This document shows positions 41,821 through 49,318 of a stretch of 64,000 nucleotides of DNA, in pieces. Position 1 is the first letter of the stretch, and every line of letters starts with the position of its first letter. This stretch comes from a virus. The DNA lies in the IMG/VR virus record IMGVR_UViG_3300036851_000225, positions 6,018 through 70,017 of that record; one strand, given 5' to 3'. Made by a program: the position numbers and the translations under genes. The notes under the pieces were generated by a model that made no database searches, was not told where the DNA came from, and worked only from the letters and a program-made list of their open reading frames with translations.

Positions 41821-42126
41821 ATGTGCTTTGAACATTTGAACGAAGCAAATAAGCGCAATGAACTGCTCTTGCTTGACGGCGGCATGTGTCGTTTTCATCT
41901 GCGCAAAGACGGCCAATTGACGATCCACGAGATCATCAGTCAGCAGCCAGGGACAGGCCAAAAGATGCTCGGCGAACTGAAAACGAAAGGCGCAACGTCA
42001 CTCTTTGCGAAGTGTTCTGTTGCATATCAATCGAACGAATGGTACAGACGGCGTGGCTTTATCCTCGAAAAAGTTGAGACGTTGAAATCTGGCACGCAGA
42101 TCAATCATTGGCGGCTATGGAACTGA
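41821..42126 (+). CDS. GNAT-like N-acetyltransferase
   Basis: LTIHEII..QPGTGQKML (motif A), SNEWYRRRGF (motif B). Confidence 0.75.
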   Translation: MCFEHLNEANKRNELLLLDGGMCRFHLRKDGQLTIHEIISQQPGTGQKMLGELKTKGATSLFAKCSVAYQSNEWYRRRGFILEKVETLKSGTQINHWRLWN

Positions 42127-42797
42127 TCTATTGCGCTGGCAAAAATCGCCACTTTGAAGCCATAGCATTAGGAGCAGGCTTCAATCTAGGCGTTCAATTA
42201 CCGAATGTAATCTATCATCTGCCGCTCTACTTTGCCGATCAGGATTGGAAAAGGCCGAATAGAGAACGGTACATGGCGGCATTGGCTGAACATCGCCCGG
42301 TAGTGGCAACAGTACTGGACTGGGAGCAAGAGGAGCAACTTGACGAGGTGTTAGATTGGGCTGAAGAAACAACACAATACGTTGACCGTGTACTCATTGT
42401 GCCAAAAGTATCGGACGGCATTGATCGTTTGCCGCGCGTGATTGGCGGTAAACCGGTTATGCTGGCGTTTAGCGTGCCTACGCGGTTTGGAGGTACGCAA
42501 TTACCAATCTGGGAATTTGCAGGCTGGCCTGTCCACTTACTCGGCGGCTCGCCGCATAGCCAGATGCATTATTGGTATCACTTATCAGCAATAGCCGATG
42601 TAGTGAGCACAGACGGCAATATGGCACAACAGCAAGCACACAAGTGCCGCTTTTGGAATAAGAATAAGGGTAGCAAGGGGCACTGGATACAACTTAGCGA
42701 GGTCGGAGCAGGCGACTTCGGCAAGGATAGCAATCAAGAGGCGTTCCGGCGTTCGTGCCAGAACATCATGGAGGCGTGGCAATGCCTGATGAAATGA
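42117..42797 (+). CDS. Divergent TGT/DpdA-like TIM-barrel protein (DUF6610-like), copy 1
   Basis: FADQDW, TVLDW, IVPK, SVPT, VHLLGGSP, VVSTDGN. Confidence 0.6.
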   Translation: MELIYCAGKNRHFEAIALGAGFNLGVQLPNVIYHLPLYFADQDWKRPNRERYMAALAEHRPVVATVLDWEQEEQLDEVLDWAEETTQYVDRVLIVPKVSDGIDRLPRVIGGKPVMLAFSVPTRFGGTQLPIWEFAGWPVHLLGGSPHSQMHYWYHLSAIADVVSTDGNMAQQQAHKCRFWNKNKGSKGHWIQLSEVGAGDFGKDSNQEAFRRSCQNIMEAWQCLMK

Positions 42798-42977
42798 CAA
42801 TCATCACAGGACAAAACGGCTTTTACGCCGTCGTCGGCAATCGGCGCACGCGGCTCTATATCAGTGTAGCGGCTGCACAGCGAGCGGCGGCAAGAGGCGA
42901 ATTGTACACGGCGCACGAGTATGCCGTACTGACTGGACAGGACGCCGCGCAGCCTGAAGCCAAATCGCCGCTATCGC

Positions 42978-43170
42978 TGTTCGATTGATCGTACTGATTG
43001 ACAAATAGGGGCAGCGGATGTATACTTGTCTCGATACCTTCAGTCAGGAAAGCGATGCAGGCGTTGTGCTAGGCGCTGCATCGGCAGCACAATTGCATAC
43101 GCATCGCTACGAAAGGCCATTTGATCGACTGTCTAGCACCAGTCAATCAGGTGGCTTTCTCGTTTCCAAG
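42978..43170 (+). promoter_or_regulatory. 22-bp motif, promoter and structured leader
   Basis: Motif 42978-42999; TTGACA-17-TATACT 42998-43026; hairpin 43111-43159. Confidence 0.7.
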
Positions 43171-45305: not shown

Positions 45306-46712
45306 ATGACTAACTATGCTGCTTTCCTTGACAGCAAGCGCATCGTTGCACAGCCAAGCGGGTTTGACGTTGACGAGCTGGCGCCAATGCTCTTTGACTA
45401 TCAATCAGCGGTCTGTAAATGGGCGTTGCGCAAGGGTAAGGGTGGGCTATTCTTAGACACAGGGCTTGGTAAGACGAGCATCTTTTTAGAGTGGGCACGG
45501 CACATCGTCAATCGTGAGGGCGGCAATGTGCTCATTCTTGCGCCTCTCGCTGTGTCCTACCAAATCGCCAGGGAGGGAAAGAAGTTCGGCATTGAAGTAA
45601 AAGTATGCTCGTCACAAGCCGATGTAGTACCGGGTATCAATGTGACGAACTACGAACGGCTGCACCTCTTCGAGCCGTCGAAGTTCATTGCCATTATCCT
45701 CGATGAAGGCAGCATTCTGAAGTCTCACGACGGCAAGACGCGCAACTACATTCTTGAGTGCTTTGCCCGCACACCATACAAGCTTGTGGCAACGGCTACC
45801 CCCAGCCCAAACGATCAAATGGAACTGGGCACCTATGCTGAGTTTTTAGGCATCATGTCCTACACCGAAATGCTCGCCACGTTCTTCTGTCACGACGGCG
45901 GCGACACAAGCAAGTGGCGATTGAAAGGCCATGCCGAAAAGGAATTTTACAAGTGGCTGGCGTCGTGGGCCATAGCCATGCGTAATCCTGCCGATCTTGG
46001 TTTCGACGGCTCACGGCATGTGCTACCGCCAAAGACGCGCCATGAGATCGTCGTCGCTGCCGATATTGAGACGGCACACGAGCAAGGTATGTTGTTTCCA
46101 ATGGAAGCATTGACGATGATTGAGCGCCGCGCCGCTCGCAAGGCCAGCATCACAGATCGTGTCAAGGCCGCTGCCGATATTGTAAACAGTCTGCCGGCAG
46201 ATGAGAAAGTTGTCTGCTGGTGCAATCTGAATGCCGAAGGCGATGCGCTCACAGCGGCAATCAACGGCGCTATCCAGGTAGCGGGCGCTGATCCGACCAT
46301 TACGAAAGAAAAGCGCCTGCTGGACTTTGCCCACGGCAATCTCAACCGGCTGGTGACAAAGCCAGAGATTGCAGGATGGGGTCTATGCTTAGAAGCCTGT
46401 CGCTATGCGTTCTTTATTGGCTTGTCTGATAGTTTCGAGAGCCTATACCAGGCAGAGCGGCGTATCTGGCGCTTCGGGCAGGAGAGAGAATGCCACATCT
46501 GGATTATCACTTCAGAGACAGAAGGCGCTGTTGTCAGGAATATCGAGCGCAAGGAGGCGCAGCACCATGCGATGATGGACGGCCTCGTGGCACATATGCG
46601 TGATGAGATGCGGCGGGAACTGCAATCAACAACGCGCATGACAGACGAGTACAGCGCCAATCAGCCGATGATACTACCGGAATGGATTAGAGAGGAGAGG
46701 ATAGCGGCATGA
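45306..46712 (+). CDS. SF2 (SNF2-like) helicase
   Basis: DTGLGKT, ILDEGS, TATPSPND, YQAERRIWRFGQ. Confidence 0.9.
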   Translation: MTNYAAFLDSKRIVAQPSGFDVDELAPMLFDYQSAVCKWALRKGKGGLFLDTGLGKTSIFLEWARHIVNREGGNVLILAPLAVSYQIAREGKKFGIEVKVCSSQADVVPGINVTNYERLHLFEPSKFIAIILDEGSILKSHDGKTRNYILECFARTPYKLVATATPSPNDQMELGTYAEFLGIMSYTEMLATFFCHDGGDTSKWRLKGHAEKEFYKWLASWAIAMRNPADLGFDGSRHVLPPKTRHEIVVAADIETAHEQGMLFPMEALTMIERRAARKASITDRVKAAADIVNSLPADEKVVCWCNLNAEGDALTAAINGAIQVAGADPTITKEKRLLDFAHGNLNRLVTKPEIAGWGLCLEACRYAFFIGLSDSFESLYQAERRIWRFGQERECHIWIITSETEGAVVRNIERKEAQHHAMMDGLVAHMRDEMRRELQSTTRMTDEYSANQPMILPEWIREERIAA

Positions 46713-47080
46713 AGTTCAATGCACTTGGACAGAACGCAACGCCATCGCGCAATCTAGAGACATTCGCAACGCCGGAATGCATCACGCTTATCACTTTGGA
46801 CTATGACGAAATGACGAGTGTATGCCCGGTGACAGGCCAGCCCGATCTGTCAATGGTCAAGATCGAATATGCGCCTGGCGATACCTGTATCGAAAGTAAA
46901 TCGTTAAAACTTTACTTTCAGACATTCCGCAATGAAGGCGTTTTCTGCGAGGCGCTGTCAGCACAGATAGCACAGGACATTATGAGCGCTTGTAATCCTA
47001 TCTGGTGCGAGGTGACAGTGACGCAAAAGCGACGCGGTGGTATCCAAATTGCCGCAACAGCAAGAGGAGAGAGAATATGA
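46709..47080 (+). CDS. queF: 7-cyano-7-deazaguanine (preQ0) reductase
   Basis: CPVTGQPD catalytic Cys/Asp; ESKSLKLYF QueF motif; RGGI. Confidence 0.9.
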   Translation: MKFNALGQNATPSRNLETFATPECITLITLDYDEMTSVCPVTGQPDLSMVKIEYAPGDTCIESKSLKLYFQTFRNEGVFCEALSAQIAQDIMSACNPIWCEVTVTQKRRGGIQIAATARGERI

Positions 47081-47613
47081 AGTACGCCTATATCCTGGCA
47101 TACATCGCCGTCGTGGTCGCGGCAAACTTCACCGCTATGACATTTATCCCGCTGCCACTCTTTGGACTGGTGGCAGTCGGCACCCTGTTTTTTGGCGCAA
47201 CGTTCACCTTACGAGATCGTGTACATCGCTATGGACGGCGTACTACCTACACGATGATCGCCGCCGCCGCCGTTATCGGCGTGATCCAATCACTCTTCAT
47301 CGCTGTGCCCTGGCGCATTATCGCTGCCAGCTTTACGGCGATCCTGATCAACGAGGCAGCGGATACCGAGATTTATGAGGCGTTGAAACAGCGCCACCCG
47401 CTTGTGCGCATCTTCGGTAGCAACGCAGTATCCATTCCACTCGATACGATCCTCTTTACACTACTGGCTTTTGCTGGTGAGCCTGCTTTCCCTATGTCTG
47501 TCCTGATCGCTATTATCTATGGCGACATTCTCGCGAAGTTCGCTGTGGCTTCACTCATTGCGCCATTCATTGCCGGGAACACCTATGCGCGTCATCTATT
47601 GCGATACGAATAA
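47077..47613 (+). CDS. VUT/YhhQ-family queuosine precursor transporter
   Basis: VAAN, GATFTLRD, ASF..E..DTEIY, SNAVSIPLDTILF..LAF. Confidence 0.85.
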   Translation: MKYAYILAYIAVVVAANFTAMTFIPLPLFGLVAVGTLFFGATFTLRDRVHRYGRRTTYTMIAAAAVIGVIQSLFIAVPWRIIAASFTAILINEAADTEIYEALKQRHPLVRIFGSNAVSIPLDTILFTLLAFAGEPAFPMSVLIAIIYGDILAKFAVASLIAPFIAGNTYARHLLRYE

Positions 47614-49318
47614 CAAGCGCTGTGCTGAGATCGCCGTCAAGGCCGGCTTGCTTTACGGCGCGCAACTGCCGGCTAGTCAGGTATTCTTTGATCCGTTCTT
47701 TACCGATCAAAACTGGAAAAAACCGCAATTTGATCAGTACGTTGCCGCCGTCCAGCAATACAAACCGCACTACGCAACAGTCATAGATTGGGAGCGCAAG
47801 GGGCAAGAGACAGAAGTGATGCAGTGGGCCGAAGCAATCGCGCCTTACACGCAGCATATCATCATTATCCCAAAAACGCCAGGCGTTATTGATCGGATAC
47901 CACACACGATCAATGGTACATCTGTCGTTCTTGGCTACAGTGTTCCTACCACCTACGGCGGTACAGCAATCCCGCCGACTGATTTTGCAGGCTGGCAGGT
48001 TCACCTGCTTGGCGGCTCGCCAAAAGCGCAACAGCGCGCCTATCGCAAGATGCAAGCGGCTAAAGCCGAAGTGGTAAGCGTTGACGGGAATATCATCTCA
48101 AAAATGGCGATCAAGAAGTGTCACTATTGGGCTAGCGGGCAGTGGAATGCAATGGACGGGCAAGATCCCAGGGCGTTTGCTGATGAGCAATACGACAAGC
48201 GCTATATGATATTCGAGGTTTCCTGCCAGTCCATTATGCGAGAATGGCACAAGCTCACGAGTGACAAGCCGGATCGATCAATTTTTATCATGCCAGGAGG
48301 GGAGCATATGACAAACGTTATCAATCAGGCGCAAGGTGAGAATTGGATTACATATCACGGCGATTGCGTCGAGACGATGAAAGGCATACCGGATAACAGT
48401 ATTGATTATTCTGTGTTCAGTCCTCCATTTGCATCGTTATATACGTATTCCGCATCAGAGCGGGATATGGGCAATTGCCGTGATCACAATGACTTCGCAG
48501 TGCATTACCGCTATCTGGTCACAGAGCAATATCGCACACTGAAGCCTGGACGCTTGCTCTCATTCCACTGCATGCAGCTACCAGCCACAAAGCAGTACCA
48601 CGGCTACATCGGCCTGATTGACTTTCGCGGCGAGTTGATCCGTATGTACCAGGACGCCGGATTTATCTATCACTCTGAAGTGGTAATCTGGAAGGACCCC
48701 GTAACAGCGATGCAGCGTACCAAAGCGCTCGGCTTGCTCTATAAGCAACTGAAAAAAGACAGCGCCATGAGCCGCCAGGGTGTACCGGATTATCTTGTTA
48801 CGATGCGAAAGCCAGGCATCAATGAAGAGCCGATCACGAAAGAGCCGCTTGATTATCCCGTCGATTTGTGGCAAGAGGTAGCTAGTCCTATCTGGAACTA
48901 TGGCGAAAACGATCCGCCATTTCGCCAGCTTGTTGATTGGCTGATGCAGTTCTTCGGGCGTTCTGATACTCTGCCCGTATGGCAGCGCTACACAGATGCA
49001 GTATGGATGGATATTAACCCCTCTGACACACTTCAGTATCGCAGCGCCAGAGAGCATCAGGATGAGCGCCACATCTGCCCACTGCAACTGGAGGTAATAC
49101 GGCGTGCTATCCGGCTCTGGACTAACCCAGGTGATACTGTCCTTGATCCTTTTGGGGGGATTGGAAGTACGCCATACTGCGCGATTGAACTAGGCCGGCG
49201 CGGCGTAGGCATCGAACTGAAGCGCTCCTATTTTGAGCAGATGTGTCGCAACTTAGCTGCTGCCGAAAAAATGGCACACCGGTCATCCTTCTTTGATTTG
49301 ATCGAAGAAGCTGCATAA
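47585..49318 (+). CDS. Fusion of TGT/DpdA-like domain (copy 2) and beta-class N4C/N6A DNA methyltransferase
   Basis: N-terminal FTDQNW, VIDW, VHLLGGSP, VVSVDGN; C-terminal GDCVE, FSPPF, HICPLQ, LDPFGGIGST; internal RBS and ATG at 48308. Confidence 0.85.
   Translation: MRVIYCDTNNKRCAEIAVKAGLLYGAQLPASQVFFDPFFTDQNWKKPQFDQYVAAVQQYKPHYATVIDWERKGQETEVMQWAEAIAPYTQHIIIIPKTPGVIDRIPHTINGTSVVLGYSVPTTYGGTAIPPTDFAGWQVHLLGGSPKAQQRAYRKMQAAKAEVVSVDGNIISKMAIKKCHYWASGQWNAMDGQDPRAFADEQYDKRYMIFEVSCQSIMREWHKLTSDKPDRSIFIMPGGEHMTNVINQAQGENWITYHGDCVETMKGIPDNSIDYSVFSPPFASLYTYSASERDMGNCRDHNDFAVHYRYLVTEQYRTLKPGRLLSFHCMQLPATKQYHGYIGLIDFRGELIRMYQDAGFIYHSEVVIWKDPVTAMQRTKALGLLYKQLKKDSAMSRQGVPDYLVTMRKPGINEEPITKEPLDYPVDLWQEVASPIWNYGENDPPFRQLVDWLMQFFGRSDTLPVWQRYTDAVWMDINPSDTLQYRSAREHQDERHICPLQLEVIRRAIRLWTNPGDTVLDPFGGIGSTPYCAIELGRRGVGIELKRSYFEQMCRNLAAAEKMAHRSSFFDLIEEAA

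What the first reader, a model, noticed from the sequence alone, without database searches (positions are those of the whole stretch)
41821..42797. GNAT coupled to a DpdA-like gene: possible N-acetyl-preQ1 base
Seen: the GNAT stop overlaps the TIM-barrel gene start by 10 nt, forming a two-gene unit. Known: preQ1 has a primary amine, and methylated and formylated dPreQ1 derivatives have been reported in phage DNA. Inference: the GNAT acylates inserted preQ1, giving a base I do not know to have been described.
Basis: inference. Interest (0 to 1): 0.72.

Follow-up and report, generated by a model that had tools for sequence, protein, structure and literature searches.

The report
Acetyltransferase coupled to phage DNA guanine-swapping enzyme
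A complete uncultured phage carries a very small acetyltransferase gene overlapping a gene for a DpdA4-type enzyme thought to swap guanine in DNA for preQ1, and the two travel together or are fused in many other phages, which points to an acylated 7-deazaguanine DNA base that nobody has yet measured.

Summary
ORF 41821-42126 (101 aa) ends 10 nt inside ORF 42117-42797 (226 aa). The first has no Pfam hit of its own. Its model, its family profile and its distant relatives all place it in the GNAT acetyltransferase superfamily. The second is Pfam DUF6610, the 'DpdA4' family of Hutinet et al. 2023.

The pair is not a chance neighbourhood:
- A DUF6610 gene lies beside the GNAT in 31 of 37 loci.
- 44 of 63 non-redundant viral DUF6610 groups have the GNAT.
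- Fusions occur in both domain orders.
- QueF, YhhQ or QueT genes sit between the two genes in some loci.
- The same GNAT family lies inside complete preQ1 operons that use a classical DpdA.

The window is 64 kb of a complete 70-kb phage. It encodes QueF and a YhhQ transporter but no preQ0 pathway.

Best reading (about 0.5): the GNAT N-acylates the aminomethyl group of preQ1 or dPreQ1. No chemistry was tested. Two complete phages carry the GNAT without any detected transglycosylase. This scan reached the same reading on other DNA.

The parts
41821..42126 (+). Mini-GNAT acyltransferase, 101 aa, of a distinct family. The loop PGxG and the motifs AKCP and SNxWY..GF are conserved across the family; this protein reads AKCS at the AKCP motif.
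   Evidence: Sequence and RBS. Family alignments. Fold. Profile against PDB sequences. 408 relatives at E<=1e-3.
42117..42797 (+). DUF6610 / DpdA4-type TIM barrel, paralogue 1 (226 aa). Its start overlaps the GNAT stop by 10 nt.
   Evidence: Pfam PF20314 at E 8e-38. Model pLDDT 94. Tops the structural search on ArcTGT at Z 15.0; DpdA 7ui4 scores Z 12.4. DpdA4 naming from PMC10516641.
46709..47080 (+). QueF, preQ1 synthase (preQ0 to preQ1), 123 aa.
   Evidence: TIGR03139 at 104.4 bits against a cut-off of 86.9. CPVTGQPD and ESKSLKLY are visible. Pfam QueF at 2.3e-22.
47077..47613 (+). YhhQ/Vut_1 queuosine-precursor transporter. Its ATG 47077 overlaps the QueF stop (ATGA).
   Evidence: TIGR00697 at 60.7 bits against a cut-off of 50.95. 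Pfam Vut_1. Start read.
47585..49318 (+). DUF6610 paralogue 2 fused to an N6/N4 DNA methyltransferase. The open frame starts at 47519; the family-consistent ATG is at 47585. It is 42% identical to paralogue 1.
   Evidence: Pfam DUF6610 at 2.2e-38 plus N6_N4_Mtase at 2.9e-20. Identity.
45306..46712 (+). SNF2-type helicase directly upstream of queF. This is context only; relatives sit near the pair in other loci.
   Evidence: Pfam. SNF2/MTase relatives in L014, L027, L029, L056 and L081.

Best explanation
The two overlapping genes form one functional unit of a phage DNA-modification pathway that salvages its base precursor. The phage imports or takes host preQ0/preQ1 through YhhQ and reduces preQ0 to preQ1 with QueF. 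A DUF6610/DpdA4-type transglycosylase then exchanges guanine in phage DNA for the 7-deazaguanine base. The mini-GNAT uses an acyl-CoA, most simply acetyl-CoA, to N-acylate the primary aminomethyl group of preQ1. The product in DNA would be 7-(acylaminomethyl)-7-deazaguanine ('acetyl-dPreQ1', +42 Da on dPreQ1). Shown here: the identities of the parts, their coupling, conservation and fusion, and their link to preQ1 genes. Inferred: base exchange in DNA by this DUF6610, the acceptor atom, the acyl group, and the order of steps. Whether acylation acts on the free base before insertion or on DNA after insertion is open.
For: (1) GNAT identity. Foldseek gives 58 matches at E<=0.001, and the listed rows are all GNAT acetyltransferases. 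The family profile finds 50 PDB sequences at E<=1; all but four of them (8hme_D, 6iuf_A, 6h3t_A, 6h3s_B) are annotated as GNAT-type acetyltransferases or uncharacterised proteins, best E 7.9e-5. Distant family members pass the Pfam GNAT cut-offs. The two glycines of the CoA-pyrophosphate loop (G44, G46) are nearly invariant in 69 sequences. (2) Coupling. DUF6610 lies beside the GNAT in 31 of 37 loci found with the GNAT. The GNAT is present in 50 of 72 loci, or 44 of 63 groups at 90% identity, found with DUF6610. In 38 of those 44 the two domains lie within 100 nt. (3) Fusions. Of the 10 longer hits I chose from the 150 listed, 7 carry DUF6610. Single ORFs occur in L019, L025 and L027 (GNAT then DUF6610) and in L037 (DUF6610 then GNAT). 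(4) Link to preQ1. Genes lying between the two partners are YhhQ (L001, L004, L024), QueT (L003, L048) or QueF (L104). The family also sits in QueD-QueC-FolE-QueF-DpdA-x-GNAT of Dinoroseobacter phage R5C, in QueE-x-GNAT-QueC-FolE-QueF-DpdA of L031, and after QueF in L109. All three loci that carry QueC (a preQ0-pathway gene) with the GNAT also carry QueF. (5) The GNAT is optional. L108 and L109 are syntenic (ParB-DUF6610, ParB-like, YhhQ, QueF) and differ by GNAT-QueC. (6) HVTV-1 DpdA4 has no GNAT domain or gene, and its DNA holds dPreQ1 at about 30% of G. (7) This phage has QueF and YhhQ but no QueC, QueD, FolE, radical-SAM or TGT genes, so it specifically makes preQ1. (8) Chemical precedent: PaMx11 gp48, a GNAT, acetylates 5-aminomethyl-dU in DNA in vitro (PMC8989533, passages read). 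DpdM and DpdN methylate and formylate the same preQ1 amine (PMC10516641, passages read).
Against: No chemistry or expression data exist for any member. The window protein itself has no Pfam GNAT hit at E<=0.1. It also lacks the N-terminal helices that normally shape the acceptor site, since it is only 101 aa. The usual catalytic Tyr position is not conserved family-wide. L033 and L034 are complete 90-kb phages with a 40%-identical GNAT but no DUF6610, Pfam TGT or DpdA-like match. L020 and L030 also lack them, though those records are only 70% and 49% complete. 19 of 63 DUF6610 groups have no GNAT within about 6 kb. These include L108, which has QueF and YhhQ. That DUF6610 is a DNA transglycosylase rests on one virus, on HHpred in PMC10516641, and on my structural match, which is only about 1 Z above unrelated TIM barrels. 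Profile-to-sequence comparisons with a DpdA and with PDB sequences found nothing. Most loci with the pair show no QueF within the fetched flanks, so preQ0 as the inserted base cannot be excluded there.
Confidence: 0.5

Rival explanations
1. The GNAT is an accessory partner of the transglycosylase rather than a base-tailoring enzyme. It might bind DNA or the base, activate or regulate DUF6610 (for example by acetylating it), or stand in for the DpdB-type helper. The DNA would then carry plain dPreQ1 or dPreQ0.
For: The two parts are tightly adjacent and fused in both orders. In other DUF6610 proteins the N-terminal position is held by a ParB-like domain, and DpdB is a ParB-like helper of bacterial DpdA (passage of PMC12839542 read). 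The mini-GNAT lacks the usual acceptor-site helices, and the catalytic Tyr is not conserved.
Against: The family also accompanies classical DpdA enzymes unrelated in sequence to DUF6610. It co-occurs with ParB-DUF6610 in L109, where it sits beside QueF and QueC and not beside the barrel. The CoA-loop glycines are nearly invariant. DUF6610 works without it in HVTV-1.
Confidence: 0.2
2. The GNAT is a tailoring enzyme with different chemistry. It may use another acyl donor (propionyl-, malonyl- or succinyl-CoA, or an aminoacyl donor) or another acceptor than the preQ1 aminomethyl group. The modified base would then be something other than N-acetyl-dPreQ1.
For: The GNAT fold does not fix donor or acceptor. 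The family has its own signature, a nearly invariant Cys-Pro in AKCP and an Asn in SNxWY, that is not part of the standard GNAT motifs (my knowledge). Most loci show no QueF in the fetched flanks.
Against: All three loci where QueC accompanies the GNAT also have QueF (R5C, L031, L109). This phage carries QueF without the preQ0 pathway. The only nucleophile that preQ1 adds over preQ0 is the primary amine (established chemistry).
Confidence: 0.17
3. The pair does not act on DNA. The DUF6610 barrel would attach a 7-deazaguanine to tRNA or to a protein, as the TGT-like Cap10 of CBASS does, and the GNAT would serve that process.
For: Cap10 (9ntn_B) is the third-best structural match, Z 13.8 with 205 residues aligned. 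No DNA activity has been shown for any bacterial-phage DUF6610.
Against: HVTV-1 DNA carries dPreQ1 and DUF6610 is its only transglycosylase candidate. There are fusions of DUF6610 to a DNA methyltransferase and to ParB-like DNA-binding domains. The genes sit in phage replication modules next to SNF2/MTase genes. No CD-NTase or QueC-like Cap9 was seen among the 30 ORFs between 27.8 and 53.3 kb that I scanned with Pfam.
Confidence: 0.08
4. The adjacency is incidental: two unrelated small phage genes happen to overlap.
For: Short overlaps are common in compact phage genomes.
Against: The pair is conserved across MAGs labelled as one archaeal and seven bacterial lineages and across many viral contigs. 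Fusions have arisen repeatedly.
Confidence: 0.01

Closest known systems
DpdA4 (Pfam DUF6610, PF20314) of Halovirus HVTV-1, gp69 (Hutinet et al., NAR 2023, PMC10516641; DNA data in PMC6884629)
   Same: Same Pfam family. tblastn identity to the window protein is 28% over 80% of its length. It also sits among preQ1 genes including QueF, and it is the proposed guanine/preQ1 exchanger in viral DNA.
   Different: HVTV-1 gp69 is 386 aa with an acidic N-terminal extension and no GNAT. That virus encodes the whole preQ0 pathway. The paper's abstract calls DpdA4 specific to archaeal viruses. Here the family lies in a phage with bacterial-type signals, and relatives lie in MAGs labelled as bacterial. It is paired with a GNAT and duplicated, with the second copy fused to a DNA methyltransferase.
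DpdM (dPreQ1 N-methyltransferase, validated in vivo) and DpdN (predicted dPreQ1 N-formyltransferase) (PMC10516641)
   Same: The proposed role is the same: tailoring of the preQ1 aminomethyl nitrogen in phage 7-deazaguanine cassettes that contain QueF and a DpdA.
   Different: The folds are unrelated. By the paper, DpdM is DUF3109/YkgJ-like and DpdN is PurN-like; here the enzyme is a GNAT. The predicted product is an acetyl or other acyl amide, not methyl or formyl. No product has been measured.
PaMx11 gp48, 5-aminomethyl-2'-deoxyuridine N-acetyltransferase (Lee et al., NAR 2021/22, PMC8989533)
   Same: It is a GNAT-fold enzyme that acetylates, with acetyl-CoA, a primary aminomethyl group on a base already in DNA. 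The profile comparison with the family here gives probability 81.9%, E 1.1e-5, over 73 columns.
   Different: The similarity is only at superfamily level (18% identity). The substrate is a pyrimidine C5 side chain, not a 7-deazapurine C7 side chain. gp48 is 140 aa and works in a 5-hmdU pathway with no transglycosylase.
GNAT/TGT modules of 'BRC' BREX-related capture systems (NAR 2026, PMC12839542)
   Same: The paper notes a GNAT with a TGT homologue, 'occasionally fused', and proposes that they mark DNA with acyl and 7-deazaguanine derivatives.
   Different: That is a cellular defence island with PglZ, HerA/FtsK, a STAND NTPase and DUF4007. None of these is among the Pfam-scanned neighbours here. 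The paper does not name DUF6610. Its supplementary accessions were not available to me, so I cannot say whether the families are the same.
Bacterial DpdA/DpdB (preQ0 insertase with a ParB-like ATPase; 7ui4)
   Same: TGT-like barrel, Z 12.4 with 214 residues aligned. Some DUF6610 proteins are fused to ParB-like domains.
   Different: No sequence-level similarity was detected. The window copy has no ParB partner, and the likely base is preQ1 rather than preQ0.

Membership tests
GNAT (GCN5-related N-acetyltransferase) superfamily | Mixed alpha/beta GNAT fold | tested here: met
   The model (pLDDT 81.8) gives 58 Foldseek PDB matches at E<=0.001. The listed rows are all GNAT acetyltransferases, TM (query) 0.45-0.78, most 0.6 or more.
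GNAT (GCN5-related N-acetyltransferase) superfamily | Motif A pyrophosphate-binding loop Q/R-x-x-G-x-G/A after strand 4 | tested here: met
   The window protein reads QQPGTGQ. G44 and G46 are at least 90% conserved in 69 family members, and many members read R/Q-x-x-G-x-G. HMMER aligns this segment to motif A of 1vkc and 2ae6.
GNAT (GCN5-related N-acetyltransferase) superfamily | Passes a curated Pfam GNAT model | tested here: not met
   No family at E<=0.1 for the window protein. Distant family members fused to DUF6610 do pass: P0134, P0152, P0160, P0130 and L037.
GNAT (GCN5-related N-acetyltransferase) superfamily | Acyl-CoA-dependent acyl transfer | not testable with these tools
   Needs an enzyme assay.
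DpdA4 / DUF6610 (PF20314) | Match to PF20314 above the gathering score | tested here: met
   130.5 bits against 27 for paralogue 1 and 132.4 bits for paralogue 2.
DpdA4 / DUF6610 (PF20314) | TGT-superfamily TIM barrel | tested here: inconclusive
   In the VIA-align search of 48,161 chains, ArcTGT 1iq8 ranks first (Z 15.0, 216 aligned). Cap10 scores 13.8, TGT 3unt 13.4, DpdA 7ui4 12.4 and QTRT2 11.6, and these have the longest alignments (205-216). Unrelated TIM barrels reach Z 12-14.4 with about 175-185 aligned. Foldseek ranks generic barrels first. Sequence comparisons found nothing.
DpdA4 / DUF6610 (PF20314) | Genomic association with 7-deazaguanine (preQ1) genes | tested here: met
   QueF and YhhQ lie 4 kb downstream beside paralogue 2. 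YhhQ, QueT or QueF adjoin the family in L001, L003, L004, L024, L048, L055, L104, L105, L108, L109 and L112.
DpdA4 / DUF6610 (PF20314) | Exchange of guanine for a 7-deazaguanine in DNA | not testable with these tools
   It has not been shown directly for any member. The paper reports that tests of DpdA4 in E. coli were unsuccessful.
DpdA4 / DUF6610 (PF20314) | Restriction to archaeal viruses (as stated in the PMC10516641 abstract) | tested here: not met
   Relatives lie in MAGs labelled Nitrospirales, Thermodesulfobacteriota, Methylobacillus, Dehalococcoidia and others, and in Mycobacterium phages. The window phage has a Shine-Dalgarno-type site before the GNAT gene, and its portal protein matches bacterial phages. 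Its host is unknown.
BRC (BREX-related capture) GNAT/TGT module | Neighbouring PglZ, HerA/FtsK, STAND NTPase, DUF4007 and DUF6079 | tested here: not met
   None is among the 30 ORFs between 27.8 and 53.3 kb that I scanned with Pfam. The element is a complete tailed phage.
PaMx11 gp48-type DNA aminomethyl-base N-acetyltransferase | Close sequence relationship to gp48 | tested here: not met
   hhalign gives probability 81.9% and 18% identity over 73 columns, which is superfamily level only.

The most novel reading that the evidence does not exclude
Many phages of bacteria write a DNA base that has not been described: N-acetyl- or other N-acyl-dPreQ1. They make it with a two-part, often fused, GNAT-DpdA4 enzyme using salvaged or phage-made preQ1. 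This phage would go further. Its second DpdA4 copy is fused to an amino-methyltransferase, so one genome might carry two different 7-deazaguanine marks.
Probability: 0.42. Interest if true: 0.82.

Novelty: new variant of a known kind. Interest (0 to 1): 0.66.

Why it matters
Eight 7-deazaguanine DNA bases are described in PMC10516641, and two of them (methyl- and formyl-dPreQ1) are made on the preQ1 amine. An acyl derivative would add a new natural DNA base and a new enzyme class to that pathway.

The DpdA4 family would change from an archaeal-virus curiosity to a widespread module of bacterial phages. It would gain a defined partner, and the natural fusions could be expressed as a single gene.

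Such bases matter for three reasons:
- The phage-host arms race. Restriction enzymes act on guanine-containing sites, and a 2025 preprint (10.1101/2025.10.29.685425, passages read) reports defence glycosylases that target 7-deazaguanine-modified phage DNA.
- Sequencing and restriction artefacts in viromes.
- Enzymatic labelling of DNA.

The claim is directly testable. Dinoroseobacter phage vB_DshS-R5C is cultured and carries the GNAT in a full preQ1/DpdA operon.

Tried and rejected
**Gene neighbourhoods.** I took neighbourhoods from the search for related loci instead.

**Wider GNAT alignments.** A single-protein scan with the R5C GNAT found only R5C itself. As a result, the diverse end of the GNAT family (408 relatives) was sampled for context only through the DUF6610-anchored scan.

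**Complex prediction.** Complex prediction on GNAT plus DUF6610 gave no answer: score 0.00 in both runs, and the controls were not folded. It counts neither way.

**Sequence link from DUF6610 to TGT or DpdA.**
- The A2 profile against PDB sequences gave one unrelated hit at E 0.74.
- hhalign of A2 against R5C DpdA gave probability 0.3%.
- Foldseek ranked generic TIM barrels first.
- Only the full VIA-align search put a TGT on top.

**ORFs after the GNAT in L020 and L030.** They are not DUF6610: hhalign probability is below 1% and Pfam gives nothing.

**Pfam TGT family search.** It missed the classical DpdA of L031. tblastn with R5C DpdA does find that gene. Absence of PF01702 is therefore weak evidence, so I added a protein search with the L031 DpdA.

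It has no similarity to the GNAT family and no Pfam or NCBIfam hit. It matches phrog_24928, of unknown function.

**L099 N-terminus.** A CxxCxxCC hit (PF03692, 20.2 bits, below the cut-off of 23) suggested a DpdM-like domain. tblastn found only ParB-like domains and no DpdM phages, so I dropped the idea.

**Host.** It could not be inferred: the portal protein is at most 34% identical to that of any catalogued phage.

**Literature.** The searches run were:
- 'DUF6610'
- 'DpdA4'
- DpdA / preQ1 / phage / acetyltransferase
- 7-deazaguanine / DNA modification / GNAT
- vB_DshS-R5C / deazaguanine
- dPreQ1 / acetyl
- deazaguanine with acetamidomethyl, acetylaminomethyl or acetyl-preQ1
- DpdA / deazaguanine from 2024

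None returned a paper describing an acetylated preQ1 in DNA. For R5C I saw only the search listing, and I found no DNA composition data. Supplementary Data S1 of PMC10516641 (DpdA4 homologue list) and of PMC12839542 (BRC GNAT/TGT accessions) may bear on how far the pairing is already catalogued.
Full report
**What is there**

The window is bases 6018-70017 of a 70,017-bp IMG/VR virus record. The record has direct terminal repeats and is rated 100% complete. I found a 127-bp repeat at its ends. It is a tailed phage with terminase, portal, head protease and endolysin genes on the minus strand. A plus-strand early and replication block runs from about 27.8 to 57 kb and holds RecT-like, primase-polymerase/AAA, SNF2 helicase and integrase genes. 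The host is unknown: the portal protein is at most 34% identical to that of any catalogued phage.

Inside the early block, ORF A runs from ATG 41821 to the TGA at 42124-42126. ORF B runs from ATG 42117 to 42797. GGAG lies 5 nt before ATG 41821, and all ten close homologues start at that Met. A promoter-like site with 11 of 12 matches follows at 42998-43026, so the pair lies at the end of a transcription unit.

**ORF A is a GNAT**

Pfam, PHROGs and NCBIfam give nothing for the 101-aa protein. Three other lines of evidence place it in the GNAT superfamily.

- **Fold.** An AlphaFold2 model built on 10 homologues (pLDDT 81.8) gives 58 PDB matches at Foldseek E<=0.001. Every listed row is a GNAT-type acetyltransferase, including RimI, Naa50, NatC and spermidine acetyltransferase.
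- **Sequence profile.** A 69-sequence family profile finds GNAT chains, best 1vkc_A at E 7.9e-5. The alignment covers motif A to motif B.
- **Size and conservation of the family.** A profile search of 1.84 billion representatives finds 408 relatives at E<=1e-3. Nearly invariant family-wide are the two glycines of the CoA-pyrophosphate loop, a Cys-Pro (AKCP; this protein reads AKCS), an Asn (SNxWY), GF and a C-terminal Trp. The usual catalytic Tyr position is variable.

**ORF B is DUF6610, also called DpdA4**

ORF B matches PF20314 at E 8e-38. Hutinet et al. 2023 renamed the HVTV-1 member of this family DpdA4, on the basis of HHpred (92.5% to TGT) and gene context. They called the subfamily specific to archaeal viruses (PMC10516641, passages read).

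My model has pLDDT 94. In a full structural search it ranks archaeosine TGT first (Z 15.0, 216 of 226 residues aligned). Cap10, bacterial TGT, DpdA (7ui4, Z 12.4, 214 aligned) and QTRT2 give the next-longest alignments. Unrelated TIM barrels come within about 1 Z. Sequence-level comparisons found nothing. I therefore take the transglycosylase assignment as likely, not shown.

**The pair is a unit**

*Searching with the GNAT.* This gave 9 loci in species genomes and 28 viral contigs. The genome loci are MAGs labelled Altiarchaeales, Nitrospirales, Peribacteria, Ignavibacteria, Dehalococcoidia, Thermodesulfobacteriota, Methylobacillus and Pyrinomonadaceae. DUF6610 lies next to the GNAT in 31 of the 37 loci. 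Some loci are near-duplicates, for example L015/L035 and L016/L018.

*Searching with DUF6610.* This gave 72 viral loci, partly on the same contigs as the first set.
- 50 of the 72 contain the GNAT.
- After grouping the DUF6610 domains at 90% identity, 44 of 63 groups have it.
- In 38 of those 44, the two HMM envelopes lie within 100 nt. In 33 the order is GNAT then DUF6610 with a gap of -16 to +30 nt. In 4 the order is DUF6610 then GNAT.

*Fusions.* Of the 10 longer proteins I picked from the 150 listed hits, 7 carry DUF6610 behind the GNAT. Several of these pass the Pfam GNAT cut-offs. Single fused ORFs occur in L019, L025 and L027. L037 has the reverse order.

**The unit belongs to preQ1 metabolism**

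*Genes lying between the two partners.* Where the two genes are separated, the gene between them is usually a queuosine-precursor gene:
- YhhQ in L001, L004 and L024
- QueT in L003 and L048
- QueF in L104

*Association with other transglycosylases.* The GNAT family also occurs without DUF6610 inside complete preQ1 operons that use a classical DpdA.
- In Dinoroseobacter phage vB_DshS-R5C the order is QueD, QueC, FolE, QueF, DpdA, one ORF, then the GNAT (gp88, 38.8% identical), with QueE nearby.
- In L031 the order is QueE, x, GNAT, QueC, FolE, QueF, DpdA.
- In L109 the GNAT follows QueF and precedes QueC, in a cassette headed by a ParB-DUF6610 fusion. The syntenic L108 lacks the GNAT.

The family therefore accompanies three different transglycosylase architectures and is dispensable. 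That fits a tailoring enzyme better than a structural subunit.

*This phage.* It has a true preQ1 synthase (TIGR03139 above its cut-off, with the CPVTGQPD and ESKSLKLY motifs). It also has a YhhQ transporter (TIGR00697 above its cut-off). It has no QueC, QueD, FolE, radical-SAM or Pfam-TGT gene. It therefore depends on host or imported preQ0 and converts it specifically into the amine-bearing preQ1.

**Comparison with measured DNA**

HVTV-1 is the only DpdA4 virus whose DNA has been analysed. It has no GNAT: the N-terminus of gp69 is an acidic stretch, and no GNAT homologue turned up in 50,697 phage records except R5C. Its DNA holds dPreQ1 at about 30% of G (PMC6884629, passages read). This is what one expects if the GNAT adds something to dPreQ1.

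There are chemical precedents. PaMx11 gp48, a GNAT, acetylates 5-aminomethyl-dU within DNA (PMC8989533) and is related to this family only at superfamily level. DpdM and DpdN modify the same preQ1 nitrogen.

**Evidence against**

- Nothing here is chemistry.
- L033 and L034 are complete 90-kb phages that carry a 40%-identical GNAT but no detected DUF6610, TGT or DpdA. Either the family has other uses or those phages rely on a host enzyme.
- 19 of 63 DUF6610 groups have no GNAT nearby.
- Most pair-bearing loci show no QueF in the fetched flanks. A host can supply preQ1.
- The mini-GNAT lacks the usual acceptor-site helices.
- The structural support for a TGT fold is modest.

**What is already in print**

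DpdA4/DUF6610 is in print. A 2026 paper notes GNAT and TGT homologues, 'occasionally fused', in BRC defence islands and suggests acyl and 7-deazaguanine marks (PMC12839542). That is a different genomic setting, and I could not check whether the families are the same because the supplements are closed. My searches found no paper that describes acetyl-preQ1 in DNA.

Earlier notes of this scan reached the same reading on other genomes. One of them gave me the PaMx11 lead, which I then checked in the paper.

**Verdict**

I rate it a new variant of a known kind of system, namely 7-deazaguanine DNA modification with a new tailoring enzyme. Confidence in the acyl-dPreQ1 reading is about 0.5, and interest is 0.66.

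Noticed in passing
window 47585-49318 (open frame from 47519): A second DUF6610 copy, 42% identical to the first, is fused to an N6/N4 amino-methyltransferase. It sits directly after queF and yhhQ. What two DpdA4 paralogues do in one phage is unexplained, as is whether the methylase acts on adenine/cytosine or on the preQ1 amine.
   Followed up: partly
window 46709-47613: The queF stop and the yhhQ start share ATGA (47077-47080). The phage has these two genes but none of the preQ0 pathway, so it follows a salvage-and-reduce strategy.
   Followed up: yes
L099-L101, L105, L108, L109; Mycobacterium phages Rinkes, Knocker, Funsized gene 1: These DUF6610 proteins carry an N-terminal ParB-like domain (the L105 and L108 extensions carry a DGHLR motif). 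This parallels bacterial DpdA with its ParB-like DpdB helper. L108 and L109 also encode a second ParB-like protein next door.
   Followed up: partly
L099:5149-6732: This 528-aa protein has a sub-threshold CxxCxxCC hit (PF03692, 20.2 bits against a cut-off of 23) ahead of the ParB-like and DUF6610 parts. By the paper's description, DpdM is of a related Cys-rich type. tblastn found no DpdM phage, so the point is unresolved.
   Followed up: partly
L033 and L034 (two complete ~90-kb viral records): A GNAT of the same family (40% identity) occurs with no detectable DUF6610, TGT or DpdA anywhere in the genome. Its role there is unknown.
   Followed up: partly
window 42794-42988: A 64-aa ORF starts with an ATGA overlap on the DUF6610 stop, so three genes are translationally coupled. 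It was not in any cross-locus cluster, and neither Pfam nor PHROGs gives a hit.
   Followed up: partly
structural search of the DUF6610 model: Cap10 of type IV CBASS (9ntn_B) is the third-best match at Z 13.8. It is a TGT-like enzyme that puts a deazaguanine on a protein. This is a reminder that the TGT fold does not by itself fix the acceptor.
   Followed up: no
It has no similarity to the GNAT family and no Pfam or NCBIfam hit. It matches phrog_24928, of unknown function, at E 5.8e-26.
   Followed up: partly
L014, L027, L029, L056, L081: Large SNF2-helicase/DNA-methyltransferase fusion genes lie 1-2 kb upstream of the GNAT-DUF6610 pair. In the window the SNF2 and methylase parts are separate genes flanking queF-yhhQ-DUF6610.
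   Followed up: no
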